Source: Candidatus Amesbacteria bacterium RIFCSPLOWO2_01_FULL_48_25
GTDB taxonomy: Bacteria > Patescibacteriota > Microgenomatia > CAZETR01 > Amesbacteraceae
Assembly: GCA_001773695.1 (NCBI GenBank)
Contig: MEXN01000001.1
Coordinates: 41,903-105,902, forward strand
DNA: 64,000 bases
Reading direction: 5' to 3'
Shown here: positions 13,146-56,024 of the stretch, one piece after another
Numbering within the stretch: the stretch's first letter is position 1
Layout of the letters: each line of letters opens with the position of its first letter
Program-made: the position numbers and the translations under genes
The notes under the pieces: model-generated
What the model was told of the DNA's origin: nothing
Databases searched by the model: none
Seen by the model: only the letters and a program-made list of their open reading frames with translations

Positions 13146-13173
13146 AAGTTTACCACCAAAAAAGCACGAATTT

Positions 13174-13288
13174 CCCGGCCACGACCTATTTTCACGGAGA
13201 GTTGCCCCTCAGCTATTGTCAGCGCTGGCGCGTTTTACGGTCCAGTTCGGAATGGGATGGAGTAGTTCCACGCCGCTCCAGTGACCGG
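13174..13288 (-). rRNA. rrf: 5S rRNA
   Basis: The minus-strand reading CCGGTCACTGGAGCGGCGTGGAACTACTCCATCCCATTCCGAACTGGACCGTAAAACGCGCCAGCG...GTCGTGGCCGGG has helix I end-pairing and the CCGAAC loop-C signature. Confidence 0.8.
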
Positions 13289-13506
13289 AAAATTCGTGCT
13301 TTCTTAAGTTTTCAACCAGGCGTTTATTCCCTGGAAAGTGAAGAGAATGTTTGTAATAGATCACGCAAATCTACTTCAATAAGACCGATTAGTACAGGTT
13401 CGCTAAACGCGTTACCGCGCTTACACGGCCTGCCTCTATTACGGGGTATTCTTCCCCGGGTCTTCTGTCCACCTTGCGGTGAACATGAGCTCCTTATCTT
13501 GGGTAG

Positions 13507-13539
<33 letters not shown>

Positions 13540-13678
13540 CGTAGGCACTTAGCTACCCGGCGATGCCGCAAGACGCGACAACCGGCACACCAGAGGTACC
13601 TCCACCCTGGTCCTCTCGTACTGAGGGCAGACCCCCTCAAGAGCTCCCCGACTCTACTGGATAGAGACCGACATTCAT

Positions 13679-14479
13679 CCCGCATATCACTATACGGATT
13701 CGACCATATCTTCACTTCATAGCTCATTCTGAGCATAGTAGTGTCTGACGTATGGCCTGTGAGGATTCTAGTCACCAAAGCTTCGGAGTATTTTTTCCCT
13801 TGAAAACTTTCGCTTACCCGTATTCATGGAATAGGCGATCTCCAAAACTTTAGCCATCCCCTTTCTATGTAAATGCTGTCTTGATTTTACTAGCTCAACG
13901 ACTCGACAAAATTTATCAAAGTCTTCAGCCTTTTTAGTCAGCAATTTATTTCGAAAAAATGGGATTACTTTATCGACAATGCTTGGCAAATCTCTTACAA
14001 CATAAGCCAAACTTTTATCGGTTTTATCAGTTAGACTATTCTGTTTAATATAGCCGCAGTCTAATTTTCGTTTAAGTTTTTCCAAAACTATCCTCCCAGA
14101 AGGGTTCTGTGAAACTTTGAAAAAATAAACCACTTGCCAATGGGTAATTGTTTCCTGGCTTCTAACTATTCCTACATAGAAACAACCTTCGCCTTCAACA
14201 AAACCCACCAAATAATCATCACTGATCATTCGACTAGTCTTTCCTGCTGATAATCTTGCCTTCGTTCTCACACAAAGTGGTTTTACATTTTTACTAGTAT
14301 ACAAATACTACACTAGTAGCAAAACATTTACAAGGTTTTCCAGCATATAGTCAAATTTTATCCACACTTGGGTTGGTGGAATCATCTAATAACAGTTTCT
14401 CGCATAATTTAAATTAACATTCAAAAACGGTGGATGATAGACAGCTCGAAATTGTCACCTATTAGAATTACTTTAGGTC
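13679..14479 (-). mobile_element. Group I intron in 23S rRNA domain V (insertion after ...GAGACAGT, before TCGGTC...)
   Basis: Exon continuity GTGAGACAGT | TCGGTCTCTATCC is broken by about 800 nt that contain a LAGLIDADG ORF. The 5' exon ends in U and the intron ends in G, as expected for group I introns. Confidence 0.75.
13768..14304 (-). CDS. LAGLIDADG homing endonuclease (intron-encoded)
   Basis: LVGFVEGEGCFYVGIV is a LAGLIDADG motif variant. The ORF lies entirely inside the 23S rRNA intron. Confidence 0.8.
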   Translation of the reverse strand: MYTSKNVKPLCVRTKARLSAGKTSRMISDDYLVGFVEGEGCFYVGIVRSQETITHWQVVYFFKVSQNPSGRIVLEKLKRKLDCGYIKQNSLTDKTDKSLAYVVRDLPSIVDKVIPFFRNKLLTKKAEDFDKFCRVVELVKSRQHLHRKGMAKVLEIAYSMNTGKRKFSREKILRSFGD

Positions 14480-14516
<37 letters not shown>

Positions 14517-15105
14517 CTTTTAACCGGCGAACAGCCGGACCTTTGGGAGGTACTGCCCCCCCTGGATAGGATGAGCCGACATCGAGGTGCCAAACCGCCG
14601 CGTCGATATGGACTCTTGGCGGCGATCAGCCTGTTATCCCTAGGGTAGCTTTTATCCGTTAAGCTCGCCGCCACCCACGTGGCATGCGAGGATCACTACG
14701 GCCTGCTTTCGCACCTGCTCGAGCTGACACTCTCACAGTCAAGCACACTTTTGCCGTTACACGACCCGTTCGATTTCCATCCGAACTTAAGTGTACCTTG
14801 GCACTCCTGCGTTACCTTTTAGCAGGATACCTCCCCAGTAAAACTGCCCCCCAGACCTTGTCCCCTCCGACGTTTCCAGTCGGAATAAGTAAGTCTTGAG
14901 ATTTTAAAACGAGAGGTGTTTCACTTTCTCCCAAAGCCTTGCGGCCAAAGGATACCTCCTACTCTAAACTATCTCAAAATCCAAAACAGGGCCTGAGTAC
15001 AGTAAAGCTCCATAGGGTCTTTTTGTCCTAGTAGAGTTAGGCCGCATCTTCACAGCCATTTCAATTTCGCCGGGTAACAGTTCAAGACAGTTGCTCTGTC
15101 GTTAA

Positions 15106-15141
<36 letters not shown>

Positions 15142-16700
15142 CTTCGCTACCATAGAACAGTTATAGTTACTGCTGCCGTTCACTCGAGCTTCATTTCAAG
15201 TCTTCGCCCTTGCGGGCTAAACCATCCACTTAACTTACGAGCACTGGGCAGGCTTCAGCCTGTATACTGCCTCTTTCGAGTTTGCACAGACCTGTGTTTT
15301 AGTTAAACAGTCGCAGAGCAATCTTTCGCTGCGGTCCGCCAAATGGCGGACAGGACATCTTGCTAACTTACGTCCAGCTTTTTTGCCGAGTTCCTTGAAC
15401 TGCCTTCTCCCGATCGCCTTGGTCTACTCGACCATCCCACCAGTGTCGGTTTGCGGTACGGCAAAGTAAACGTCTCGTCACGAACTTTTTCTCGAAAACA
15501 AAAACATTCCGGATCATCAACTCAATTTCTCAAGTCAACTCTTCATCACCACTCAATTAAACGCCATGCCGGATTTTCCAGGCACAACTGTTTCATGGCT
15601 TAAACGCGCATTCACTGCACACGCCCAGATGTTCTCGTTTTGTCTATCCCTGACTATTAACGACGTCCACTCTGTAGCCGAATATTCACGGCTCGTCCAT
15701 CAGCTACGGCCACTACGCCCTCGCCTTAGGTGCCGACTCACCCTGGGCCAAACAATGTCGCCCAGGAAACCTTGGGATTTCGGCGGTCCGAATTCTCATC
15801 GGACTTACGCTACTCATTCCGGCATTCTCACTTGAAACCGCTCCAAACCGGTTTACACCAGCCCTTCGCAGCAATTTCAACGCTCCCCTACCGATTCGTG
15901 CGCAGCACGAAAGTTACTAAGTATTCCAGTTAACCAGTTGCACAGTTGATTTAAACTGACAAACTGGAAAACTGTCGAACTGAATAACTTTTGTGCTACA
16001 CACAAATCCTGTGTCTTCGGCAAAACGCTTCAGCCTCGGTTCATTTTCCGCGCCAAACTCCAAATTCGACCAGTGAGCTGTTACGCTTTCTTTAAAGGAT
16101 GGCTGCTTCTGAGCCAACCTCCTGGCTGTCTGAGGAATTTGACTACGTTCAACACTAAGCGTTCATTTAGAGGCCTTAGACGACAGTCTGGGTTGTTTCC
16201 CTTTAGATCGGCCCGCTTAGCCGGGTCGTTCTGACTCCCTCGTAAGTTCTTACCAGCATTCGGAGTTTGATTGAATATTACAACTTGCGCTGCAACACCC
16301 ATCCAGTGCTCTACCTCTGATAAGTTTTTAACGAGAGGCTATACCTATATATATTTCGGGGAGAGCCAGCTATCTCCTGGTTCGATTGGCATATTACCCC
16401 TAATCACAAGTCGTCCCACAGGTTTGTAACCCTGACGGGTACGGGCCTCCCTCCGGTTTTCACCGGAGCTCACCCTGCTCATGATTAGCTCACCAGGTTT
16501 CGGGTCTTCCAGCTGCTGCTTTTCGCCCTATTCAGACTCGCTTTCGCTCCGCCTACTCCCGATTTAATCGGGATTAAACTCGCAACAACCGAAAACTCGC
16601 CGGATCATTCTTCAATAGGCACGCGATCATCCGCCAGATGGCGGACTCTCACTGCTTGTTAGCAGACAATTTCAGGTTCTATTTCACTCGGGTTTCGCCC

Positions 16701-16742
<42 letters not shown>

Positions 16743-17356
16743 ATGCCAAAGTATTTAGCCTTGGAGCGTGGTTGCCCCGGATTCCCACAAAGTATGTGCT
16801 TCATGGTACTTGGGAACAAGCTAGGGTGGATTTAGATTTCACCTACGCGGCTATCACGCGCTCTGGCCTGACTTTCCAGACAGTTCGGCTATCCAAAACC
16901 CAATCCCACATTACTTGCCCCGCAACACCACTCCATAGCCCTTACGGGCAACGGGTGGTTTAGGCTTTTCCGATTTCGCTCACCGCTACTCACGGAATCT
17001 CTTTGATTTATTTTCCAGTCCCTACTTAGATGTTTCAGTTCGAGACGTTCCCCCCACGTTCATTTAACTGAACGTGGTCTCCATATAGGAGGGGTTTCCC
17101 CATTCGGAAACCGCCGGATCAGCGCTTCTTGGCAGCTCCCCGACGACTATCGCGGCCCTGTACGTCCTTCTTCGGCTTTGACATCCTAGGCATCCATTGT
17201 CTGCATTACGGAAGTATAAAATGCGGCTCTACTACAAAATTCTCTTCACTTTTCAAAGAGCAAACATTCCTCAGCCGTTGATGGCTGATCTCGGCCTCCC
17301 CACGAAAGGGAAACCGGGATCAACTCTCAAAGCTTGCCCTGAGCACGGTCGAATGG

Positions 17357-17431
17357 GTGGACTCGGAGGGATTCGAACCCTCGACCTCATCATTGCAAAT
17401 GATGCGCTCTAGCCAACTAAGCTACGAGCCC
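17357..17431 (-). tRNA. tRNA-Ala (anticodon UGC)
   Basis: GGGCTCGTAGCTTAGTTGGCTAGAGCGCATCATTTGCAATGATGAGGTCGAGGGTTCGAATCCCTCCGAGTCCA has a G3:U70 pair, a UGC anticodon and a canonical T-loop. It sits immediately upstream of the 23S. Confidence 0.85.
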
Positions 17432-17442
17432 TCCGAATCTAA

Positions 17443-17471
17443 ATTGTCAAAAAAACACCTCCTTTCGGAGG
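17443..17471 (-). terminator. Intrinsic terminator (CCTCCGAAAGGAGG + U-run) upstream of tRNA-Ala
   Basis: Minus-strand hairpin followed by TGTTTTTTTG. It would separate the upstream protein genes from the tRNA-Ala-23S-5S unit. Confidence 0.45.
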
Positions 17472-17605
17472 CCACGATTACCTTGCTTTATAGGTGCTCT
17501 AGGACACGCCCGACACCAAGTTGATTAGATTTAAAAGCAAAGTCCTCATGAATTCAAACCACCCTCGAAAGGTAATCCTGATATTACCTTCCCCTTCCCT
17601 CCCTG

Positions 17606-17908
17606 TCAAGCCCGTCCACTATGGTTATGCATAAGTTTTGGCTGTGAAGCAAGTATCCTAACCAGTTCCCTCCTAGCCTTTTCGGCAACAAGTATGTTCG
17701 CATTGACCAACCTCCTATCAATATTTGCCTCCGAAACCCCTTCGGTAACCCCGGGATCCAACTCATAATAGTCACCGGATTTATCCTTTAATTCTTTCAG
17801 CCTGGCCAGCTTAACTGAATACGAAACCCCACTTAGTACATCGGCATCAAAAGATCCCAGCATCTCCTCACGTCTCATTCTTTCATCAAACTGAGCATCA
17901 GTTTCCAT
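17606..17908 (-). CDS. Hypothetical protein (100 aa), last gene of the HlyD/MacB-like cluster
   Basis: Acidic, non-repetitive composition; no motif recognised. Confidence 0.3.
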   Translation of the reverse strand: METDAQFDERMRREEMLGSFDADVLSGVSYSVKLARLKELKDKSGDYYELDPGVTEGVSEANIDRRLVNANILVAEKARRELVRILASQPKLMHNHSGRA

Positions 17909-17940
17909 GGCTATATTTTAAAATCCCTTCCAGTCAACTC

Positions 17941-19179
17941 TTATTCATACCTCAAGGCCTCAATCGGGTCTAAACGCGCGGCCCGTACCGCCGGCGCCAG
18001 TCCCGATACTATCCCCACCACGGCCGACACCCCAAAAGCCAAGAGTACCGATCCCAAGCTCACCTGAGTCTCGATAAACCTTCCCAAAATTAGAGAAAAC
18101 CCGGCCCCTATGCCTATTCCCATTCCCCCCCCCAGTACCGACAATACTATCGCCTCAATCAAAAATTGCAGCAGTATATCTCTTTTAGTCGCCCCCACCG
18201 CTTTGCGAAGTCCAATCTCCCGCGTCCTCTCCGTCACCGACACCAGCATAATATTGGCAATCCCAATTCCGCCCACAACCAGAGAAATTGCCGCAATCCC
18301 AGACAATGCCCCCGTCACCACCCCCAAAAATGAATTAATCGTCTCCAATAGTTCCTTAGGCTCAAGTATCGTAAAGTCGTCATCCGTCAAATTCTTGCGG
18401 TAAAAATAGTTTTTAATTTTCCGGGCAGCCACCGCCGTCCCCGCAGCATCCACTGTCCTCACCATTACTGCCGCCGGTTTTTTAATCCCCGTTACCCGAG
18501 ATGCCGTAGTCACCGGCATCAGCACAAAAGTATTTTCATCACTATTTCCTCCTATCCCCCCGCCTTTCTCCTTCAAAACTCCGACAATAGTCATCTGCGA
18601 TCCCACCACGTCAATCTCCTTTCCCACCGCATCGCCGACCCCGCCAAATAGTTCCTCATAAACCTTGTGTCCAATTACCACTACCATCTGGCTCCGTTCC
18701 AGCATACTTTTAGTAAAAAACCTGCCCATTTCCACCTCCACGTTGCCGTAATCCAAATACTCCTCGCTTACCCCCGCGATATTTCCGTAAAAGGTTTCAG
18801 AGCGGTATTTTAGTGTCCCCCCCCGGGAAATCATCCCCGACGCCTTCACTATCGGGTCTCCCAAATCGCCTATTTCTTTTATGTCGTTAAAATCAAACTT
18901 CGCCTCTACGTTTCTTGGCGGTCCGCCAGAAAAACTCACTTTCCCAGGCGATATCAAAAGGATATTCGACCCCAAGGACTCAAATTCACGCGTCACAAAT
19001 GCCTGCAGCCCGTTGCCAATAGACACCAAAAGAATGACCGACGCCACCCCGATAATAATCCCCAACGTAGTCAAAACCGACCGCGTTTTATTGGTTCTAA
19101 TAGCAATCCCGGCCGTCCTAAATAACTCGACTCTATCCATACTATCTGATGACGATCCTTTCGCCTTCTTTAAGCCCAA
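17941..19179 (-). CDS. ABC transporter permease, MacB/FtsX family (MacB periplasmic core domain + FtsX)
   Basis: N-terminal TM, a large periplasmic domain, then a C-terminal FtsX-type 3-TM bundle (TERTREIGLRKAVGATKRDIL). No ATPase gene is adjacent. Confidence 0.8.
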   Translation of the reverse strand: MGLKKAKGSSSDSMDRVELFRTAGIAIRTNKTRSVLTTLGIIIGVASVILLVSIGNGLQAFVTREFESLGSNILLISPGKVSFSGGPPRNVEAKFDFNDIKEIGDLGDPIVKASGMISRGGTLKYRSETFYGNIAGVSEEYLDYGNVEVEMGRFFTKSMLERSQMVVVIGHKVYEELFGGVGDAVGKEIDVVGSQMTIVGVLKEKGGGIGGNSDENTFVLMPVTTASRVTGIKKPAAVMVRTVDAAGTAVAARKIKNYFYRKNLTDDDFTILEPKELLETINSFLGVVTGALSGIAAISLVVGGIGIANIMLVSVTERTREIGLRKAVGATKRDILLQFLIEAIVLSVLGGGMGIGIGAGFSLILGRFIETQVSLGSVLLAFGVSAVVGIVSGLAPAVRAARLDPIEALRYE

Positions 19180-20137
19180 CTTTTACTTCTATCAAATCAT
19201 CCCCCTCAATCCCTATCTCCACTTTCCTCTTCCCTCCACCCTCCATCTCTGCCTCACCATCCACCACGGCTTCAATCGGCAACTTCAATACATTTTTCGC
19301 CTCCGAAACGACAAGTGTCGCATCCCCGTTCATCCCCACCCTTAATATCTCAATATCCTCTTCACTTATCTTGACTCTCACCGAAAACACTGTCGCCCCG
19401 GCATCTGAAATATGGGCCACAAACTCAATTATTTTTATTTCCCCTTCAAATTCTTTATCCGGATATGCATCCAGCTCAACCTTCACTTTCTTCCCAATAG
19501 TTACCATGGACAAATCCGCCTCATCTACCTCGGCCTCAAAATACAGCGAGTCGGGATCCACTACATCCACTCCATCGGTAACCCCCGCCGCCTGCCCTAC
19601 CACATTCACAGTCACCCTGGCCACAACCCCGTCAAATGGCGCGATCAAACTGGCATTATTCTTGGCCCGGATCGCGCTCTGCCACGTATCATAAGCTTTA
19701 TCCCTGACGGTCTGTGCCGCCACCCGCTTGTTTTTCAGAACAAATGTCTCGTCATTATCATGGCCTTTTACTTCGTCCTCCACCTGTTTGGCATTAGCAT
19801 CCGCCGCGATATAACTATAATAGGCGGCCGTTTCGGCAGCAGCCAAATCCCGCACGTCCAATCCCATCATAGCCGTCCCCTTTTTCACCTCGTCTCCCTC
19901 GCGGGCCTTCACATACCCCAGCTTACCCGGACTCAAGAATCGTAAATGCGCTTCTTTCTCCGCTTTGATTTTCCCCGATAGTGCCAGAGTCCTAACCACG
20001 TCACCCTTCTCCACGCTCACAATCCTTGTATTCTTGTTGTTGTTGCTTTTACTCCTCATCCACAACCACCACCCCGCCCCAACGACAAGTATTAAAATAG
20101 CAATCGCTATGTTGCGCCGCCTCATAGACTTACCCAT
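19142..20137 (-). CDS. Efflux/secretion periplasmic adaptor (HlyD/MacA family membrane fusion protein)
   Basis: N-terminal TM anchor, coiled-coil segment, lipoyl/beta-barrel segments. It overlaps the permease gene. Confidence 0.75.
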   Translation of the reverse strand: MGKSMRRRNIAIAILILVVGAGWWLWMRSKSNNNKNTRIVSVEKGDVVRTLALSGKIKAEKEAHLRFLSPGKLGYVKAREGDEVKKGTAMMGLDVRDLAAAETAAYYSYIAADANAKQVEDEVKGHDNDETFVLKNKRVAAQTVRDKAYDTWQSAIRAKNNASLIAPFDGVVARVTVNVVGQAAGVTDGVDVVDPDSLYFEAEVDEADLSMVTIGKKVKVELDAYPDKEFEGEIKIIEFVAHISDAGATVFSVRVKISEEDIEILRVGMNGDATLVVSEAKNVLKLPIEAVVDGEAEMEGGGKRKVEIGIEGDDLIEVKVGLKEGERIVIR

Positions 20138-20419
20138 TTTAACTCACCGTGCTAAACTTAAATAAGATTATGAAACCAACCACAGTCGTCTTTAGTCTCA
20201 TAGCCACCATCGCTGTCGTTTTTCTTGTGGCGGCCATTGGTTCCTTCCTCTACGGCATATTCATCCTCCCCAAACTCAACCGCGGCATTTTTTGTATTCA
20301 ATCCCTCTCCCGTTCCTGCTTTCTTGGTTCCACTATCTGTTACAATTTCCCCAATCCCTGCTCCGCCCCACCCCTCTGGTACCCCAGATCCCGCTAGTTA
20401 AGATATAATTCACCTGTTC

Positions 20420-20491
20420 GGGTCGCTGGTTCAGCGGTAGAACGTCGTCCTGATAAGACGAAAACGCCAGGTCCGACTCCTGGGCGACCCA
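20420..20491 (+). tRNA. tRNA-Ile (anticodon GAU)
   Basis: GGGTCGCTGGTTCAGCGGTAGAACGTCGTCCTGATAAGACGAAAACGCCAGGTCCGACTCCTGGGCGACCCA folds as a cloverleaf only on the plus strand. Anticodon loop CTGATAA; T-loop TCCGACT is non-canonical; a TATAAT box lies 10 nt upstream. Confidence 0.7.
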
Positions 20492-20504
20492 CTAAAACTA
20501 TCCA

Positions 20505-20741
20505 TCACTCTACTAGAGTAAATCCAATCATTCGCCCCTCTTTATTCACCACCTCATCAAACTTTCGGCCATTTGGTAATTGCCACCTTGTCTTTTTTTC
20601 CCCATCCTTATCTCTACACCAAACAGCCTCCCACCCCCACCGCTTCCTATCCTCAGCAATTGCAAACTCCTTTTCCAGCCGCCGCCTATTTATCAAGCCC
20701 ATAAGACGAAGATACTCCAAATCGCCTATCTCCTTCATCAA
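20505..20741 (-). CDS. Hypothetical small protein (78 aa)
   Basis: ORF between tRNA-Ile and the 16S; basic/acidic mix; no motif. Confidence 0.3.
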   Translation of the reverse strand: MMKEIGDLEYLRLMGLINRRRLEKEFAIAEDRKRWGWEAVWCRDKDGEKKTRWQLPNGRKFDEVVNKEGRMIGFTLVE

Positions 20742-20992
20742 ATATCTGTTTTTAAGCTCTTCCGTTTCTGTTCTCCAACCCGGAAATCTCCCTCTCGAGT
20801 CCCTCCACCATATCTTTATAAACCATAAATTCCGTATACCGCAGTTCGGAAAGAGAATTCTCGTGCCGCACGCCCCGGAATTTTCTCTTGGCCTCCAAAT
20901 ATTTCGGCTTATATTTCGCCAGCTGCTCCTCCAAATATTTCAGCCTCGTCTGAGTGTCCATACCCCATTTTAACCCTCCGACCAACAGTAAC

Positions 20993-21235
20993 CTACTGCC
21001 TAAAAAGCAACACACCCAAAAGGCGAGCCAACACCGACTCTCTTGGATTTACACGCATCCAATATCCCCTACGAACCCTATCTACTACTCCCCTCATGTG
21101 ACATTGGGTACAACTAAATTCTCTGCCCGCCAGCCCTTCCGCAGCTTTCTTCTTCAATATCTCAGGCAACGGACAATCGCTCTCTTGTTGACAACCCACA
21201 ATTACTAATGGCACTCCTAACCTCATTTCTATCAT
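20993..21235 (-). CDS. Hypothetical small Cys-containing protein (80 aa; C..C...C..C.H zinc-ribbon-like)
   Basis: CQQESDCPLPE...CTQCHMRG. It sits just after the bidirectional terminator that follows the 16S. Confidence 0.3.
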   Translation of the reverse strand: MIEMRLGVPLVIVGCQQESDCPLPEILKKKAAEGLAGREFSCTQCHMRGVVDRVRRGYWMRVNPRESVLARLLGVLLFRQ

Positions 21236-21261
21236 ACTCAGATTATATCAATAACAAGGCC

Positions 21262-21291
21262 AAAAAACCCGCCAAATAGGCGGGCTTTTTT
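21262..21291. terminator. Bidirectional intrinsic terminator AAAAAACCCGCCAAATAGGCGGGCTTTTTT
   Basis: Perfect 6-bp GC stem flanked by an A6 run and a T7 run, located about 180 nt past the 16S 3' end. Confidence 0.75.
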
Positions 21292-21470
21292 GCTTGTACT
21301 CTAAAAAGTGGTAGGAAATATAAGTAGCGGGAAACTGCTTTTGACGTGTGCTGCTTCCCCTACCTGCGGGTCCCGTTATTTTAATGTGGACGGTTTCCAA
21401 TGACCACAGGGTGATTTCCACTACGGCTCTGAAAAAATTAATTTTCTAAGCCTACCGTGATTAACTCCTA

Positions 21471-22965
<1,495 letters not shown>

Positions 22966-49495: not shown

Positions 49496-49876
49496 TCAAT
49501 ACGGCACAATCAAGTCCAAACGCGGAATACCCCTAAAATGCCTGCTGTTTTTCGTAACTAACTCCTCCCCTCTCACCATCGCCGTCGCCCCAATAAATGA
49601 ATCTATTATCCCCAAACTCTGAGAAAACCAATATTGGGAAAAAATTTCCCCCGCCACAACTGATATCTCCCCGTCCACCTCCACTACCTCTACCGGTCCC
49701 AACGCTTTCAATTGGCGCATCAACTTATTTAACTCCACCATTGATTTAGCTCCTTTTATCAATTCCATCACCGTCAACCTGCTAACCCTGATGGATCCCT
49801 GCACACCCAAAATATAATCAGCGGCTCTTGACTCTCCCCTAATCACATCCACCAACACTCCCGTGTCAACCACCAT
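49496..49876 (-). CDS. PIN-domain ribonuclease toxin (VapC-like); start MVVDTG
   Basis: An N-terminal acidic Asp (VVDTGVLV) and later conserved D/E residues in a PIN fold of about 125 aa. Confidence 0.65.
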   Translation of the reverse strand: MVVDTGVLVDVIRGESRAADYILGVQGSIRVSRLTVMELIKGAKSMVELNKLMRQLKALGPVEVVEVDGEISVVAGEIFSQYWFSQSLGIIDSFIGATAMVRGEELVTKNSRHFRGIPRLDLIVPY

Positions 49877-50132
49877 AGCTTCGCATCTCTTCCTTTCGTC
49901 TCCACTCATCCACAATGTCCACCGAGGACTTACTTGCCGGCCACCTGTCTTTCCACATCCCAAAAACCTCAGGCAAGATCCTTCTTTTCACTATCTTTTT
50001 CTCCTTTCTTACGGGGGATATCCGGGCCATCACTATCCTGTTTTTAGTCACCAGAAACTCTTCCCCAGCGTATGCTCGGTTCAAAATTTGTAAGAAATCC
50101 TGCCTAGCCTGGGAAGCGTTAATCTGTGTCAT
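49866..50132 (-). CDS. Antitoxin, Phd/YefM-like
   Basis: SQARQDFLQILNRAYAGEEFLVTKNRIVMARI matches the Phd/YefM N-terminal fold. It lies upstream of and overlapping the PIN gene. Confidence 0.55.
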   Translation of the reverse strand: MTQINASQARQDFLQILNRAYAGEEFLVTKNRIVMARISPVRKEKKIVKRRILPEVFGMWKDRWPASKSSVDIVDEWRRKEEMRSYGG

Positions 50133-50732: not shown

Positions 50733-51360
50733 CCGGAATCACCACCTCCCCCACCATTCCCACCATCAATCCCTCCCAACTATCCAAACTCGCATCAACT
50801 ACCAATTTTTTCCCATCCGGCCTTGGCAAACCCGTCTTCCCGGCTAACTCTTTACCATTGATTTTTACCATCACCTCCCCTGGTTCCATAAACCCGTCCA
50901 GTTCTGTCTCAAATCTCAAAGCGTCCAAATCCAATATTTTAAAGGCGTTCGAGGCTGGACTCACATTCAGTCCGACTCTATTTCCCCCATCGTCCACCAC
51001 CGTCCCATTTACCGGCGATATCAACGTCGCCTGATCCATTTTGGCTTTAGCGATTTCTACTTCTTTGACGCTGGCATTCAATTGCGCCTGCTCAATCTGC
51101 TTAGCATACTTGGTCAGATCATCACCCGGATTAGGATTTCTCTTGGCAAATATCTCAAACTCAGCTCTTTTCCTTTCGTAATCGGCCAGCTGTAAATCCA
51201 GCTCCATCTGTAACATCTTGGTATCCAAAGCCGCCAGCACTTCACCTTTCTTAACCGTATCCCCCCTCTTCTTCTTCACCACCGCCACCTTTCCCGAAAA
51301 CGCATACCGCACCTCAATCTCATCAGCGGTCACCATCCCCAACCTTCCCTTCCCAACCAT
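50698..51360 (-). CDS. HlyD-like periplasmic adaptor fragment/short paralogue
   Basis: Lipoyl-like and coiled-coil segments similar to membrane-fusion proteins; no N-terminal TM. Confidence 0.5.
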   Translation of the reverse strand: MVGKGRLGMVTADEIEVRYAFSGKVAVVKKKRGDTVKKGEVLAALDTKMLQMELDLQLADYERKRAEFEIFAKRNPNPGDDLTKYAKQIEQAQLNASVKEVEIAKAKMDQATLISPVNGTVVDDGGNRVGLNVSPASNAFKILDLDALRFETELDGFMEPGEVMVKINGKELAGKTGLPRPDGKKLVVDASLDSWEGLMVGMVGEVVIPDEKNNAQEIDG

Positions 51361-51440
51361 CTACTAAATATTACCACTCCCGCGAGGACTTCATGAAATC
51401 AATTTTTGGAATCCGCAAAGCCAGCTTCGAATGGTATAAT

Positions 51441-51446
51441 AAGAAT
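51441..51446 (+). promoter_or_regulatory. -10 box TATAAT about 10 nt upstream of the GC-rich ORF-free region
   Basis: cttcgaatggTATAATaagaattg. Confidence 0.35.
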
Positions 51447-51454
51447 TGTTCTTT

Positions 51455-51745
51455 CAAAAAGACGTGCGGGGTAGTGTAGAGTTGCACGGAAGGCTAGTAG
51501 TATGGGCCCCGCCGACAGTAATGTCGGTGTGCAAACTTGGCTATATCGGTGGACACCCCGGTGTAATACCGGGACAATACCGAGGCAATCCCGAAAGGGC
51601 GAGTCCGTAGAGACTAAACGCCAAGTCCCCCCGAAGCTTCATGCGAAGGGGGAATGATATAGTCCGACACTCAAAGTAATTTGAGATTACAGATCAGCAT
51701 AATCTTCCAGGCCGGGCGCGACTCCCGGCCCCGCAACAAGTAAAA
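51455..51745 (+). ncRNA. Unidentified structured RNA candidate (about 290 nt, GC-rich, ORF-free)
   Basis: No ORF in any frame across about 350 nt, and GC markedly above the flanks. Many local hairpins with GNRA-type loops: GCGGGG...CCCCGC, CCGACA-GTAA-TGTCGG, CCGGT-GTAAT-ACCGG, CCC-GAAA-GGG, CTCAAA-GTAAT-TTGAG, GCCGGG...CCCGGC. Confidence 0.35.
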
Positions 51746-51806
51746 TTTAGCTTCAAAAACCGAGAGATGGGAGTGATAGGATCACGCCTGGTGTATAATT
51801 TAACAG

Positions 51807-52178
51807 GTGAAGCTTAAGAAAATTCTGGATAAATTACTCGAAATATACTTTTTGGGAATGGGAGTGTTCTTTGTGTTCGGGTCTGTGGTATCTTTCTTTG
51901 TATTTCTTTCCCAAAAGGTCGAAGTAGGCCTTATAACACCCGTTAAAACCCTAGTATTTGGACTCCTTTTTCTTTATTCAGGTGTTAGTTTAATGAGAAA
52001 GAAAGCCCACGGATACCAATATTGTCTTCTGGCATTGGCGATAGTTTTCCTTGTATCAACCCTGCATAGATTGTTTTTTGTAACAAGTTTCAGATTAGAG
52101 CGGGTGGATTTTAATAACTTACTTTTGTTTGGAATCCCGTTCCTGGTCACCCTCCTCTCGAATAAATTAGAAATATGA
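51807..52178 (+). CDS. Hypothetical membrane protein (123 aa, 4 TM), GTG start
   Basis: Hydrophobic helices; GTGTATAAT lies about 10 nt upstream. Confidence 0.4.
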   Translation: MKLKKILDKLLEIYFLGMGVFFVFGSVVSFFVFLSQKVEVGLITPVKTLVFGLLFLYSGVSLMRKKAHGYQYCLLALAIVFLVSTLHRLFFVTSFRLERVDFNNLLLFGIPFLVTLLSNKLEI

Positions 52179-52228: not shown

Positions 52229-53188
52229 TTAGGTTGACAATTTTCGCTGCCTTTGCCGCCCTTTAACATATCTTTCTATAGCTTCTTGAGTGGCAACCCA
52301 AATGCGCTTTTCCTTGTGTGCTTCGATTTTTCCGAAACGGGCCAAAAGATTGAGATATTTCTTTGAGTAAGGAGTTAAATTTACCAACGAAGACAGTGGT
52401 TGATATTTTTTCCCGGCATCTACTTCGGGAGACAGGGTTTTTAGGTAAATATTCAACGATCGTTCTATCGCTTGGGCCACAAAGCGAATCAACGGAGCAA
52501 GCTTCCCTTTGTCCGCATCTGCCAAAACCCGATAATATTTTTGCCTGTCGTTTTTTAGAATAACCACCAGAGGATAGCCTCTGTTTAGTAAGACAAGGTT
52601 CATAACCAAACGGGCAGTTCGTCCGTTACCATCCACAAAGGGGTGGATGTAAACCAGTTTGTGATGCAGAATAGCCGCGAATTCAACAGGATGGAGCTTT
52701 TGAATATTCTCCCCGGCCCAGGATATCAAATCGCTCATCTCAAACGAAACTTCACTCGAATCCGGTGGTAAATGGTCGGAACCGGTAATCATGACATTGG
52801 TTTGTCTATAACTTCCGGCTTGGTCCGCTTCCGTTTCCCGAACTACCAGCTTGTGCAGGTTTCTGATTAAAACTTCCGAAATTGTTTGTTGGGAGTTTTT
52901 TTCAACTAACTCATAGAGGTAATCCAACGCGTCGTAATGATCACGTGCTTCCAGATGGTCTTTAAGCGGTTTACCCTTGATAGTCAGGCCGTCTTTAATA
53001 ACCCAAGCCGTTTCTTTGAGAGTTAAGGAATTGCCCTCAATCGCGTTGGAATTGTAAGTCATTTCTATGGCAAACTGTTCCCGCAGCTTAGCCACAGCAG
53101 ATGTAGACAACGGTCTTTGAGGGTTAAGTTTGGCCAGTTTTTCATCAATTCTAGCCTGAATTCGAGAGTCTAATATGGTATAGACCAT
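52229..53188 (-). CDS. Fic-family protein
   Basis: HPFVDGNGRTARLV core motif; C-terminal helical domain. Confidence 0.8.
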   Translation of the reverse strand: MVYTILDSRIQARIDEKLAKLNPQRPLSTSAVAKLREQFAIEMTYNSNAIEGNSLTLKETAWVIKDGLTIKGKPLKDHLEARDHYDALDYLYELVEKNSQQTISEVLIRNLHKLVVRETEADQAGSYRQTNVMITGSDHLPPDSSEVSFEMSDLISWAGENIQKLHPVEFAAILHHKLVYIHPFVDGNGRTARLVMNLVLLNRGYPLVVILKNDRQKYYRVLADADKGKLAPLIRFVAQAIERSLNIYLKTLSPEVDAGKKYQPLSSLVNLTPYSKKYLNLLARFGKIEAHKEKRIWVATQEAIERYVKGRQRQRKLST

Positions 53189-53426: not shown

Positions 53427-54104
53427 ATGGCAAAATCGTACCTTAAAAACAGGGCCATCGAGCTTCGTAAATCCGGCCTGAGTGTCAAGAATATCGCTGA
53501 ATCCCTAGGAGTCTCCAAAAGCACCGCAAGTTTGTGGGTCAGAGACATAGTCCTTTCTCTTGAACAAGAGGAGTCTCTAAAACAAAGATCCTTAAAAGGA
53601 GCGGAAAAGGGTCGCACAATCGGATCGCTAGTTCAAAAACAAAGACGGCTCAAACTGCTAGAAACAGAGAAAAAAATCGGGATAAAAGAGGTGGGGCAAC
53701 TCACCAAAAATGAGCTTAAAGTCGGCGGCTTAGCTCTGTACTGGGCCGAAGGATCCAAAAAGAACCGCAGAGTCGAACTTTGCAACTCGGATCCCTTCGT
53801 TATCAAGTTCTTCATCAACTGGCTCATTAATACTTTCGACATACCCATAAAGGAACTCTCTTGCTATGTCGGTATTAATGAGGCTCACAGGGCTAGAGAA
53901 GTCAAAGTGAAAAAATACTGGTCGCTCTTAACGAAAATTCCCCTCACCAGCTTCACTAAAACTAGCTTCAAAAAGTATCCCCTCAAAAAAGAATATCCAA
54001 ACTTTGACGAACACTATGGCACACTTTCAGTTCGTGTGCGGAAACCGGCACGAATTTACTATAAAATCCTAGGTGGAATCCACGGACTGTCCATGGCTAC
54101 GTAG
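53427..54104 (+). CDS. HTH + LAGLIDADG-like putative homing endonuclease (225 aa)
   Basis: N-terminal HTH (LRKSGLSVKNIAESLGVSKSTASLWV) and a LAGLIDADG-like motif GGLALYWAEGSK. The stop codon TAG lies within nucleotides 8-10 of the downstream tRNA (GGCTACGTAG). Confidence 0.45.
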   Translation: MAKSYLKNRAIELRKSGLSVKNIAESLGVSKSTASLWVRDIVLSLEQEESLKQRSLKGAEKGRTIGSLVQKQRRLKLLETEKKIGIKEVGQLTKNELKVGGLALYWAEGSKKNRRVELCNSDPFVIKFFINWLINTFDIPIKELSCYVGINEAHRAREVKVKKYWSLLTKIPLTSFTKTSFKKYPLKKEYPNFDEHYGTLSVRVRKPARIYYKILGGIHGLSMAT

Positions 54105-54167
54105 CTCAGCGGTTAGAGCGCACGCTTCATAAGCGTGATGTCGCTGGTCCGATCCCAGCCGTAGCCA
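54095..54167 (+). tRNA. tRNA-Met (anticodon CAU; elongator type or tRNA-Ile-lysidine, not initiator-like)
   Basis: GGCTACGTAGCTCAGCGGTTAGAGCGCACGCTTCATAAGCGTGATGTCGCTGGTCCGATCCCAGCCGTAGCCA is a complete cloverleaf. G1-C72 and the absence of three G-C pairs in the anticodon stem argue against an initiator. T-loop TCCGATC. Confidence 0.85.
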
Positions 54168-54431
54168 CATGTCCAAAGATATTCTGTTCCGGATCCGCCA
54201 ACCCCAAAAACCAGGGCCAACAACTTTTCTCAATGGTATCCCATACTCACGAATAAGACACGCATACAATCTAAGCAATCAAGCCCCTGTTGAAGAATCA
54301 CCCTCCTCAATAACCCTTTTCGAGAGAGTTGTTACTAGTAAAACCAGTTGGATAAGGCCATGTCGCGTAATTACGCCACGCGAATGGCTGGTATCTCAAT
54401 TAATCAAACTCTTTCCCAACGAAAAAGTGGT

Positions 54432-55949: not shown

Positions 55950-56024
55950 TGGTGACTCGACGGGGAATCGGACCCCGATTACGGGGATGAAAGCCCCGTG
56001 TCCTAGCCGTTAGACGATCGAGCC
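55950..56024 (-). tRNA. tRNA-Glu (anticodon UUC), CCA encoded
   Basis: The minus-strand read GGCTCGATCGTCTAACGGCTAGGACACGGGGCTTTCATCCCCGTAATCGGGGTCCGATTCCCCGTCGAGTCACCA has anticodon loop CTTTCAT and T-loop TCCGATT. Confidence 0.8.

What the first reader, a model, noticed from the sequence alone, without database searches (positions are those of the whole stretch)
51441..51745. GC-rich ~300-nt ORF-free segment with its own -10 box: candidate structured non-coding RNA of unknown family
No ORF is reported in any frame across about 350 nt, and GC is clearly above the flanking DNA. A TATAAT box sits about 10 nt before the GC-rich start.

The sequence is packed with short GC helices capped by GNRA-like loops: GCGGGG...CCCCGC, CCGACA-GTAA-TGTCGG, CCGGT-GTAAT-ACCGG, CCC-GAAA-GGG, CTCAAA-GTAAT-TTGAG and GCCGGG...CCCGGC.

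Its size would fit RNase P RNA, tmRNA or a large riboswitch-like leader. I could not recognise the RNase P P4 boxes or a tmRNA tRNA-like end, so the family is unassigned.
Basis: seen in the sequence. Interest (0 to 1): 0.6.

Follow-up and report, generated by a model that had tools for sequence, protein, structure and literature searches.

The report
Self-splicing intron inside a tRNA gene
The GC-rich, ORF-free segment is a tRNA(CAU) gene, most likely the start-codon (initiator) tRNA of an ultra-small groundwater bacterium, split in its anticodon loop by a 202-nt self-splicing group I intron; this is a well-known kind of element, not a new RNA family.

Summary
Rfam's group I intron model (RF00028) hits 51428-51686 at 62 bits (gathering score 50). 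The flanks are two halves of a tRNA. Joining 51465-51495 to 51698-51736 gives a 70-nt cloverleaf with anticodon CAU. The intron (51496-51697) follows U33 and ends in G. Its guide sequence UAUG|GGCC pairs with both exons (P10 and P1, with a U.G wobble).

In 21 relatives from CPR/Microgenomates genomes, P3, P4, P6, P7 and P9 are 99-100% paired, with many compensatory changes. Of 111 metagenomic copies of the same tRNA, 74 have no intron and read AGGCU-CAUAA straight through, which confirms the junction. The insertion site and intron type are already catalogued (fMet.2Ug, Ile2.2Ug; Williams 2020).

The host tRNA looks like an initiator. Its acceptor stem is (C/U)GCGGGG/CCCCGCA-A. Relatives also carry an elongator tRNA-Met and a tRNA-Ile(UAU) nearby. 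It is non-canonical, though: U1-A72 in this copy, an AU/GC/GU anticodon stem, U11:A24, and an A18/G55 elbow that co-varies across 108 variants.

Verdict: a new member of a known kind, of low to moderate interest. The odd initiator tRNA is the only part worth following up.

The parts
51432..51440 (+). Extended -10 promoter element TGgTATAAT, 24 nt upstream of tRNA position 1 (inferred promoter; implies a leader of roughly 18 nt removed by RNase P)
   Evidence: Sequence. An exact TATAAT lies within 60 nt upstream in 65 of 135 distinct family upstream regions, 36 of them with TGn. Not called by the -35/-10 consensus scan.
51465..51495 (+). 5' exon, tRNA positions 1-33: acceptor 5' strand UGCGGGG, D arm GUGU-AGAGUU-GCAC, anticodon-stem 5' strand GAAGG, loop C32 U33. 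Its last 4 nt (GGCU, 51492-51495) also form the exon strand of intron helix P1.
   Evidence: ARAGORN calls tRNA(CAU) on the spliced sequence. The exon is conserved in 21 genome loci and 119 metagenome loci.
51496..51697 (+). Group I intron, 202 nt, no ORF. Guide sequence UAUG (P10, 51501-51504) and GGCC (P1, 51505-51508). P2/L2 GUAA 51510-51529. P3 51536-51541 with 51620-51625. P4 51546-51551 with 51578-51583. P5 51557-51573. J5/4 ACAA 51574-51577. P6/P6a 51584-51606. J6/7 plus P7 5' strand GUAGAGACUA 51607-51616. P8 51628-51652. J8/7 51653-51659. P7 3' strand UAGUCC 51660-51665. P9/L9 GUAA 51670-51685. Terminal omega-G at 51697.
   Evidence: RF00028 at 62 bits against a gathering score of 50, E 2.5e-15. 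Helix pair counts and covariation. Per-sequence hairpins for P2, P5, P6a and P8. MFE z = -4.4. 85% identity over aligned columns to the published seed Gba28.Ile2.2Ug.
51698..51736 (+). 3' exon, tRNA positions 34-73: anticodon CAU (51698-51700), A37 A38, anticodon-stem 3' strand UCUUC, variable region CAGG, T arm CCGGG-CGCGACU-CCCGG, acceptor 3' strand CCCCGCA, discriminator A73. No CCA is encoded.
   Evidence: Intron-less alleles with almost the same exons read ...AGGCU-CAUAA... without a break (L215, L217, L223, 97% identical).
54095..54168 (+). Context: a separate, canonical G1-C72 elongator-type tRNA-Met(CAU) 2.4 kb downstream. The same pairing of genes is seen in almost every relative.
   Evidence: ARAGORN and Rfam.

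Best explanation
The segment is one transcription unit: a tRNA(CAU) gene whose anticodon loop is split between U33 and C34 by a 202-nt group I self-splicing intron of the short bacterial tRNA-intron type (IC3-like).

Proposed mechanism. The anatomy is shown here; the chemistry is inferred from the established group I pathway.
1. Transcription starts a few nt after the extended -10 element at 51432-51440.
2. The intron folds into the P3-P9 core. L2 and L9 are GUAA tetraloops, presumably used for docking.
3. The last four exon nucleotides, GGCU, pair with the guide GGCC to form P1, placing U33 in a U.G wobble.
4. Free guanosine bound in P7 attacks after U33 (51495).
5. The adjacent guide bases UAUG pair with the 3' exon CAUA (P10), and the terminal G (51697) enters the G site.
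6. The exons are ligated, giving the anticodon loop CU-CAU-AA.
7. RNase P, 3' trimming and CCA addition finish a 70-nt tRNA.

The tRNA is most likely this organism's initiator tRNA (confidence about 0.75-0.8). It has the initiator acceptor stem (G2-C71, C3-G70, G4-C69, A73) and a weak or absent 1:72 pair across the family. Relatives also encode an ordinary elongator tRNA-Met and a tRNA-Ile(UAU), so no other role for a CAU tRNA is left unfilled.

The intron is optional in this lineage. Two thirds of related alleles lack it, and it has no endonuclease gene. It therefore behaves as a tolerated selfish or relic insertion rather than a regulator.
For: Intron identity:
- RF00028 scores 62 bits (gathering 50) with high posterior probability across P3-P9.

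Exons:
- ARAGORN finds tRNA(CAU) only when 51496-51697 is removed. This is the only junction that also has U at -1 and G at omega.
- P1 GGCU/GGCC and P10 UAUG/CAUA are adjacent on one guide sequence.

Comparative support (22 sequences, alignment A1):
- Cells paired: P3 100% (4 of 6 pairs changed on both sides), P4 99%, P6 100%, P7 100% (invariant), P9 99% (4 of 6), T stem 100% (4 of 5), anticodon stem 100%.
- Covariation score 0.294 against 0.151 for shuffles (0 of 500 reach it) and 0.123 or less for slid controls.
- The U.G wobble at the splice site is present in 22 of 22.
- P2, P5, P6a and P8 fold as hairpins in all 22 sequences despite different sequence and length (mean z -3.4 to -5.4).
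- All 58 distinct introns have the P7 motifs and end in G.

Junction validation:
- 74 of 111 metagenomic alleles are uninterrupted at exactly AGGCU|CAUAA.

Prior art:
- Position 2 (CU/CAUAA) is the classical fMet.2Ug site.
- The seed Gba28.Ile2.2Ug is 85% identical to this intron.

Initiator assignment:
- 1:72 is CxA in 44 variants, U-A in 61 and AxA in 3 of 108; it is never G-C.
- 2:71 and 3:70 match the Fmt determinants, and au/GC/gu is a documented natural initiator variant with only G30-C40 essential (PMC5389676).
- An elongator tRNA-Met lies next to the gene in nearly all relatives, and tRNA-Ile(UAU) is present in 5 relatives' 8-kb loci.
Against: There is no expression or splicing data, so self-splicing is inferred from conserved anatomy only.

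The window copy's P1 is short (4 bp). It lacks the 2-bp intron-side extension (CA/UG) that most relatives have; only L077 shares the AGUAG start.

For the initiator reading:
- This copy has a Watson-Crick U1-A72 pair rather than a mismatch.
- The three G-C pairs are reduced to AU/GC/GU.
- 11:24 is U:A, the elongator type.
- The closest published seed was labelled Ile2, presumably by tRNAscan-SE.
- I could not survey the whole genome for another initiator gene, Fmt or TilS.
Confidence: 0.9

Rival explanations
1. Same intron, but the host is tRNA-Ile2 (CAU, modified to lysidine by TilS to read AUA) rather than the initiator.
For: The closest published intron seed is named Gba28.Ile2.2Ug. The anticodon stem lacks the three G-C pairs. 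11:24 is U:A as in elongators. This copy has a closed U1-A72 pair, which is compatible with EF-Tu binding.
Against: 44 of 108 family variants have the CxA mismatch at 1:72 and 3 have AxA, which would be odd for an elongator. The acceptor stem matches the initiator and formylase determinants. Five relatives carry tRNA-Ile(UAU) within 8 kb, which already reads AUA. I could not read the exons of Gba28 itself, because it is absent from the loci I hold.
Confidence: 0.12
2. The gene is a decaying pseudo-tRNA. The non-canonical D and T loops (no GG, no UUC) and the intron mark a non-functional copy.
For: Rfam's tRNA model and ARAGORN miss the gene in the unspliced sequence. The T loop is CGCGACU and the D loop is AGAGUU.
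Against: The same loop pair recurs in 38 distinct variants and always switches together (A18 with G55; 0 discordant of 108). All stems stay paired with compensatory changes. A conserved upstream -10 element is present. Every intron core element equals the family consensus.
Confidence: 0.04
3. One reading: a novel structured RNA such as an RNase P RNA, tmRNA, or large riboswitch/leader of unknown family.
For: Size of about 300 nt, GNRA-capped helices, own promoter (finding text).
Against: A permissive cmscan of 51300-51900 (E up to 1) returns only RF00028 plus one chance lncRNA fragment. The flanks make a tRNA. There is no downstream gene in the leader position on a shared helix. Intron-less alleles show that the middle 202 nt is dispensable.
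Confidence: 0.01

Closest known systems
Williams 2020 (bioRxiv 10.1101/2020.01.27.920355) catalogue types Ile2.2Ug, Met.2Ug and fMet.2Ug; seed Gba28.Ile2.2Ug
   Same: Same insertion point (after the 2nd anticodon-loop nucleotide, CU/CAUAA), with U at -1 and G at omega. Same core strings: CAAA-P3-UAUAUCGGU, CAAUACCGA, GUAGAGACUA, AUGAUAUAGUCCGACA, and P9 with a GUAA loop. 85% identity over aligned columns.
   Different: P2, P5, P6a and P8 have different sequences (compensated). This intron starts AGUAG rather than CA, so its P1 is 4 bp instead of 6. I assign the host tRNA as initiator-like rather than Ile2.
Cyanobacterial tRNA-fMet group I intron (e.g. Synechocystis PCC 6803; Tpc1.fMet.2Ug seed)
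   Same: Same host class (initiator tRNA, CAU), same insertion site 33/34, and the same guide core AUGGGC pairing with GCU|CA.
   Different: The cyanobacterial host has a canonical anticodon stem. The Synechocystis intron is 655 nt and encodes the PD-(D/E)XK homing endonuclease I-Ssp6803I (PMC1995217). This one is 202 nt with no ORF and has a single short P9. Intron identity is 76% over aligned columns.
Azoarcus tRNA-Ile(CAU) group I intron (IC3; Aol6.Ile2.5Ug)
   Same: About 200 nt, no P5abc extension, no ORF, GNRA loops on P2 and P9, same J6/7-P7 string GUAGAGACUA and J8/7-P7 AUAGUCC. 75% identity over aligned columns.
   Different: The Azoarcus intron is inserted after the anticodon (position 5, CAU|), not before it, and has a different guide sequence.
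Natural initiator tRNAs with au/GC/gu anticodon stems (some mycoplasmas and alpha-proteobacteria; PMC5389676)
   Same: A29-U41 / G30-C40 / G31.U39, with the essential G30-C40 invariant in 22 of 22.
   Different: This lineage also has U11:A24, often a U1-A72 pair, a very short D loop, and in one sub-clade an A18/G55 elbow.

Membership tests
Group I catalytic intron (Rfam RF00028) | Covariance-model score at or above the curated gathering score | tested here: met
   62.0 bits against 50, E 2.6e-13 for the whole window and 2.5e-15 locally.
Group I catalytic intron (Rfam RF00028) | Conserved core helices P3-P4-P6 and P7-P8-P9, with the P3/P7 pseudoknot, supported by covariation | tested here: met
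   P3, P4, P6, P7 and P9 are 99-100% paired in 22 sequences. P3 and P9 each have 4 pairs with changes on both sides. P8, P5, P2 and P6a form hairpins in every sequence.
Group I catalytic intron (Rfam RF00028) | 5' splice site after a U that forms a U.G wobble in P1 with an internal guide sequence | tested here: met
   GGCU/GGCC. The U.G wobble is present in 22 of 22 sequences, and P1 cells are 98.9% paired.
Group I catalytic intron (Rfam RF00028) | Terminal guanosine (omega-G) before the 3' splice site, and P10 pairing of the guide with the 3' exon | tested here: met
   G at 51697. All 58 distinct family introns end in G. P10 AUG/CAU is present in 19-21 of 22.
Group I catalytic intron (Rfam RF00028) | Guanosine-binding P7 with a bulged A (G-A-GACUA / UAGUCC) | tested here: met
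   Sequence present and invariant in 22 of 22. Binding itself was not assayed.
Group I catalytic intron (Rfam RF00028) | Precise excision restores a functional host gene | tested here: met
   The spliced product is a tRNA(CAU). 74 natural alleles are uninterrupted at the identical junction.
Group I catalytic intron (Rfam RF00028) | GTP-dependent self-splicing activity | not testable with these tools
   Needs in-vitro transcription and splicing, or RNA-seq.
Subgroup IC3 (bacterial tRNA introns) | Compact architecture without P5abc; P2 and P9 capped by GNRA loops; similarity to reference IC3 introns | tested here: inconclusive
   The architecture matches, with 75% identity to Azoarcus and 85% to Gba28. 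L2 and L9 are mostly GUAA. No formal subgroup classifier was available.
tRNA (general cloverleaf) | Four-arm cloverleaf with a 7-nt anticodon loop (U33, purine 37), recognised by a tRNA finder | tested here: met
   ARAGORN on the spliced sequence gives a 70-71-nt tRNA with loop CU-CAU-AA. All stems are conserved or compensated.
tRNA (general cloverleaf) | Canonical elbow nucleotides G18 G19 (D loop) and U54 U55 C56 (T loop) | tested here: not met
   This copy has the D loop AGAGUU (A at 18, G19 kept) and the T loop CGCGACU (C54, G55, C56 kept). The change is coupled: A18 with G55 in 38 of 38 variants, G18 with U or C at 55 in 70 of 70.
Bacterial initiator tRNA (tRNA-fMet) | Anticodon CAU and discriminator A73 | tested here: met
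Bacterial initiator tRNA (tRNA-fMet) | No Watson-Crick pair at 1:72 (C1xA72) | tested here: not met
   The window copy is U1-A72. Across the family: CxA 44, AxA 3, U-A 61 of 108, never a G-C pair. I therefore describe the tRNA as working like an initiator, not as a canonical tRNA-fMet.
Bacterial initiator tRNA (tRNA-fMet) | G2-C71 and C3-G70 (formyltransferase determinants) | tested here: met
   G2-C71 in 21 of 22 and C3-G70 in 22 of 22. Determinants as stated in PMC5389676.
Bacterial initiator tRNA (tRNA-fMet) | Three consecutive G-C pairs at 29:41, 30:40 and 31:39 | tested here: not met
   A-U / G-C / G.U, invariant in 22 of 22. This matches the natural au/GC/gu exceptions, and the essential G30-C40 is kept.
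Bacterial initiator tRNA (tRNA-fMet) | A11:U24 (purine 11 : pyrimidine 24) | tested here: not met
   U11:A24, invariant. The feature definition is from my own knowledge of initiator tRNA reviews, not from a tool.
Bacterial initiator tRNA (tRNA-fMet) | It is the genome's only candidate for the initiator role; it is formylated and binds the P site | not testable with these tools
   Only 64 kb plus flanks of the genome were accessible. Indirect support: an elongator tRNA-Met and tRNA-Ile(UAU) lie beside it in relatives.
tRNA-Ile2 (CAU, lysidine) | Needed to read AUA, i.e. no tRNA-Ile(UAU) in the genome and TilS present | tested here: inconclusive
   tRNA-Ile(UAU) is found in 5 relatives' loci. 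It was not seen in the 64-kb window itself, and TilS was not searched for.
   No hit even at E up to 1 over 51300-51900. ARAGORN finds no tmRNA.

The most novel reading that the evidence does not exclude
In a large Microgenomates-group CPR clade, the initiator tRNA breaks several near-universal rules at once: an AU/GC/GU anticodon stem, U11:A24, often a closed U1-A72 pair, and a 5-6-nt D loop. In one sub-clade, which includes this window, the universally conserved elbow contact G18-Psi55 has been replaced by a co-varying A18-G55 (with C or U at 54). Other tRNAs of these organisms show C55. If real and unreported, this would be a natural re-engineering of the tRNA elbow and of initiator identity in reduced genomes. 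In about a third of alleles, every translation start would also depend on a ribozyme splicing the initiator tRNA.
Probability: 0.3. Interest if true: 0.5.

Novelty: new member of a known kind. Interest (0 to 1): 0.25.

Why it matters
For annotation, standard tRNA finders miss this gene. The genome would therefore appear to lack an initiator tRNA and to contain an unexplained structured RNA. Recognising the intron fixes both problems. Others have already noted that CPR tRNAs are hard to detect because of group I introns (PMC8172020), and the intron type is catalogued (Williams 2020).

Biologically, the intron itself is ordinary. The host tRNA family is mildly interesting as a natural experiment on which initiator-tRNA and tRNA-elbow rules are really indispensable. 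The many intron-bearing and intron-less allele pairs, with no homing endonuclease, could also inform how ORF-less group I introns are gained and lost.

Tried and rejected
(1) The Rfam alignment's 5' end (51428-51495, model P1/P2) has low posterior probability and spills into the promoter and 5' exon. I rejected it and mapped P1, P2 and P10 by hand.

(2) The genome-contig scan used ATAGTCCGACAN{15,45}GCATAA, which was too permissive (17 fixed bases with a 31-wide gap). Most of the 120 returned loci were chance hits. Only about 25 had a group I core, and 21 gave clean exons. L051, L082, L095 and L113 were dropped because no tRNA(CAU) was recovered.

(3) MAFFT could not register the length-variable hairpins, so P2, P5, P6a and P8 scored only 37-76% paired. 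I replaced that with anchor-delimited per-sequence folding.

(4) The sigma-70 consensus scan found no promoter at the TATAAT box (no -35) and no intrinsic terminator downstream. The promoter therefore rests on the extended -10 element and its recurrence in relatives.

(5) I looked for the published Gba28 intron in my loci to read its exons. It is not present; the best match is 76% (L031).

(6) I tested whether intron similarity tracks exon subtype, as a sign of horizontal transfer. The result was indecisive. The nearest intron (77%, L179) is in the same exon subtype, but the three nearest exon relatives are intron-less.

(7) I could not retrieve the organism name for GCA_001773615.1 with the available tools.

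(8) I did not build a covariance model, because the evidence was already sufficient.

Full report
**Observation.** I read the segment and scanned the whole window against Rfam. Apart from rRNAs and four tRNAs, the only hit at gathering threshold is RF00028, the group I catalytic intron, at 51428-51686 (+): 62 bits against a gathering score of 50. A permissive rescan of 51300-51900 (E up to 1) returned nothing else of substance, so no RNase P RNA, tmRNA, SRP, 6S or riboswitch. In that alignment the core from P3 onward has high posterior probability. The model's P1/P2 part is stretched with low confidence over upstream DNA, so the hit's 5' end is not the intron's 5' end. The intron alone folds to -72.8 kcal/mol against -54.6 +/- 4.2 for shuffles (z = -4.4). 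Three details need correcting. ORFs of 33-54 aa do overlap the segment. GC (0.52) exceeds the downstream flank (0.37) but hardly the upstream gene (0.49). The TATAAT box is at 51435-51440, 24 nt before the first structured base, and is preceded by TG, which makes it an extended -10 element.

**What it is.** The outermost helix (UGCGGGG...CCCCGCA) and the last hairpin look like a tRNA acceptor stem and T arm. I removed every candidate internal stretch and ran ARAGORN on the joined flanks. A tRNA is called whenever about 200 nt are removed. The only junction that also satisfies the group I rules (exon ends in U, intron ends in G) joins 51495 to 51698 and gives tRNA(CAU). The intron is therefore 51496-51697 (202 nt, no ORF), inserted between U33 and C34. 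Its 5' region carries one continuous guide, UAUG|GGCC. GGCC pairs with the last exon bases GGCU (P1, with U33 in a U.G wobble), and UAUG pairs with the first 3'-exon bases CAUA (P10). P2 to P9 can be laid out as in the published bacterial tRNA-intron alignment.

**Relatives.** The window matches the metagenome-assembled genome GCA_001773615.1 (contig MEXG01000011.1) and identical contigs in other metagenomes. A motif scan of the species-representative genome collection was too loose and returned mostly chance hits. It still yielded 21 loci with a group I core, from Levy-, Gottesman-, Roizman- and Woesebacteria, 'Microgenomates group', and some MAGs labelled Gammaproteobacteria or Pseudomonadales. 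Each has a unique U-1/omega-G junction giving a tRNA(CAU) of the same family.

**Covariation.** I counted pairs on the 22-sequence alignment A1. P3 is 100% paired, with 4 of 6 pairs changed on both sides. P4 is 99% paired, P6 100%, and P7 100% (invariant). P9 is 99% paired (4 of 6 pairs changed on both sides). The tRNA T stem is 100% paired (4 of 5) and the anticodon stem 100%. The overall covariation score is 0.294 against 0.151 in column shuffles (0 of 500 reach it) and at most 0.123 when partners are slid by 1-3 columns. The splice-site U.G is present in 22 of 22, and P10 is 3 bp in about 20 of 22. MAFFT cannot register the length-variable P2, P5, P6a and P8, so I cut them out between conserved anchors and folded each alone. 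All 22 sequences form the expected hairpin (mean z -3.4 to -5.4), and L2 and L9 are mostly GUAA.

**Independent proof of the junction.** A metagenome scan with a pattern specific to this tRNA's 5' exon returned 119 loci. Of 111 with a readable 3' exon, 74 are uninterrupted and read ...AGGCU-CAUAA... directly. The other 37 carry 176-258 nt at that very point. L215, L217 and L223 have exons 97% identical to the window's and no intron. All 58 distinct introns carry the P7 motifs and end in G. The intron is thus an optional insertion in a real gene. It occurs in nearly every exon subtype and never includes an endonuclease ORF.

[quoted passage not shown] The classical types are Leu.3Ug, Arg.5Ug, fMet.2Ug and Ile2.5Ug. 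There are 17 further types, which are frequent in metagenomic assemblies from unnamed phyla. Position 2 is CU/CAUAA, the site found here. The seed Gba28.Ile2.2Ug is 85% identical to this intron over aligned columns. Azoarcus is 75% identical and a cyanobacterial fMet.2Ug seed 76%. The Synechocystis tRNA-fMet intron at the same site is 655 nt and encodes I-Ssp6803I (PMC1995217); this one has no ORF. Lui et al. (PMC8172020) also noted that CPR tRNAs are hard to find because of group I introns. The element is therefore a further member of a described kind.

**Which tRNA?** Evidence for an initiator:
- The acceptor stem (C/U)GCGGGG/CCCCGCA with A73 equals the bacterial initiator's. The E. coli sequence is recalled from memory. 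The determinants C1xA72, 2:71 and 3:70 are stated in PMC5389676.
- Among 108 distinct variants, 1:72 is CxA in 44, AxA in 3 and U-A in 61, and never a strong pair.
- The anticodon stem is invariantly A29-U41 / G30-C40 / G31.U39. This is the au/GC/gu pattern known from natural mycoplasmal and alpha-proteobacterial initiators, and only G30-C40 is essential in E. coli.
- Almost every relative has an ordinary G1-C72 tRNA-Met(CAU) next to it (in the window at 54095-54168). Five relatives carry tRNA-Ile(UAU) within 8 kb, so a lysidine-type tRNA-Ile2 is not needed.

Evidence against:
- The window copy has a closed U1-A72 pair.
- 11:24 is U:A.
- The three G-C pairs are incomplete.
- The nearest published seed was labelled Ile2. 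I could not read its exons.

I therefore say that the tRNA most likely works as the initiator (about 0.75-0.8), but I do not file it as a canonical tRNA-fMet.

**Mechanism.** Shown here: the anatomy, the conservation and the natural ligated-exon alleles. Inferred from the established group I pathway: transcription from the extended -10 element (present in exact form in 65 of 135 family upstream regions, 36 with TGn), folding of the core, attack by guanosine after U33, the exchange of P1 for P10, attack of the U33 3'-OH after omega-G, and exon ligation. RNase P cleavage, 3' trimming and CCA addition follow; no CCA is encoded.

**Side observation.** The host tRNA's elbow is unusual. Where the D loop keeps GG, the T loop starts UUC or UCC (70 variants). 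Where the first G is A (CAG, GAG or AAG), the T loop starts CGC or UGC (38 variants). There are no discordant cases, and G19 and C56 are constant. This looks like covariation of the tertiary 18:55 contact. The number of independent switches is unknown, so its weight is limited. C55 also occurs in three other tRNAs of the window and in 7 of 29 tRNAs in the CPR loci, against 0 of 10 in the non-CPR loci.

**Verdict.** The finding is real and is explained by known biology: a group I intron inside a tRNA(CAU) gene. Novelty is low (a new member of a known kind). The only part that may deserve follow-up is the non-canonical initiator-like tRNA family itself.

Noticed in passing
window 51478-51483 and 51717-51723; loci L005-L243 (family of 108 variants): D-loop position 18 and T-loop position 55 of this tRNA family switch together: G with U in 65 variants, G with C in 5, A with G in 38, and none discordant. 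G19 and C56 stay constant. This looks like covariation of the normally invariant G18-Psi55 elbow contact.
   Followed up: partly
window 20420-20492 (+), 54095-54168 (+), 55950-56024 (-): Three of the four ordinary tRNAs in the window have T loops starting UCC (C at position 55 instead of the near-universal U/Psi55). The same is seen in 7 of 29 tRNAs in related CPR loci and 0 of 10 tRNAs in unrelated bacterial loci (small sample).
   Followed up: partly
window 13173-22965: The rRNA genes are spread out. The 16S (21472-22965, -) is separated from tRNA-Ala and the 23S (14406-17431, -) by HlyD-like (19142-20137) and MacB/FtsX (17941-19179) efflux genes. A tRNA-Ile(GAU) sits on the opposite strand (20420-20492, +).
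   Followed up: partly
window 13768-14304 (-): A LAGLIDADG homing-endonuclease ORF (Pfam PF00961, E 1.3e-19) lies in the roughly 1.1-kb gap between the 3' end of the 23S match (14406) and the 5S (13173-13289). No group I intron was detected around it by Rfam.
   Followed up: no
L017, L018, L022, L036, L047, L067, L087, L114, L119: Several MAGs labelled Gammaproteobacteria, Pseudomonadales or Lysobacterales (including a 615-kb 'chromosome', OZ246397.1) carry the same CPR-type initiator-like tRNA and intron. This suggests mislabelled taxonomy or mis-binned contigs.
   Followed up: no
L215, L217, L223 versus window 51465-51736: The nearest exon relatives (97% identical) lack the intron, while the nearest intron relative is only 77% identical (L179). 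There is an intron presence/absence polymorphism among very similar tRNA alleles, and no endonuclease gene in any of the 58 introns.
   Followed up: partly
window 49496-50132 (-), L001 1136-1678: Toxin-antitoxin-like pairs (PIN-domain with a small upstream ORF; ParE/PhdYeFM), a Fic-domain gene (52229-53188, -) and a phage-type integrase lie around the tRNA genes, which suggests an island-rich neighbourhood.
   Followed up: no
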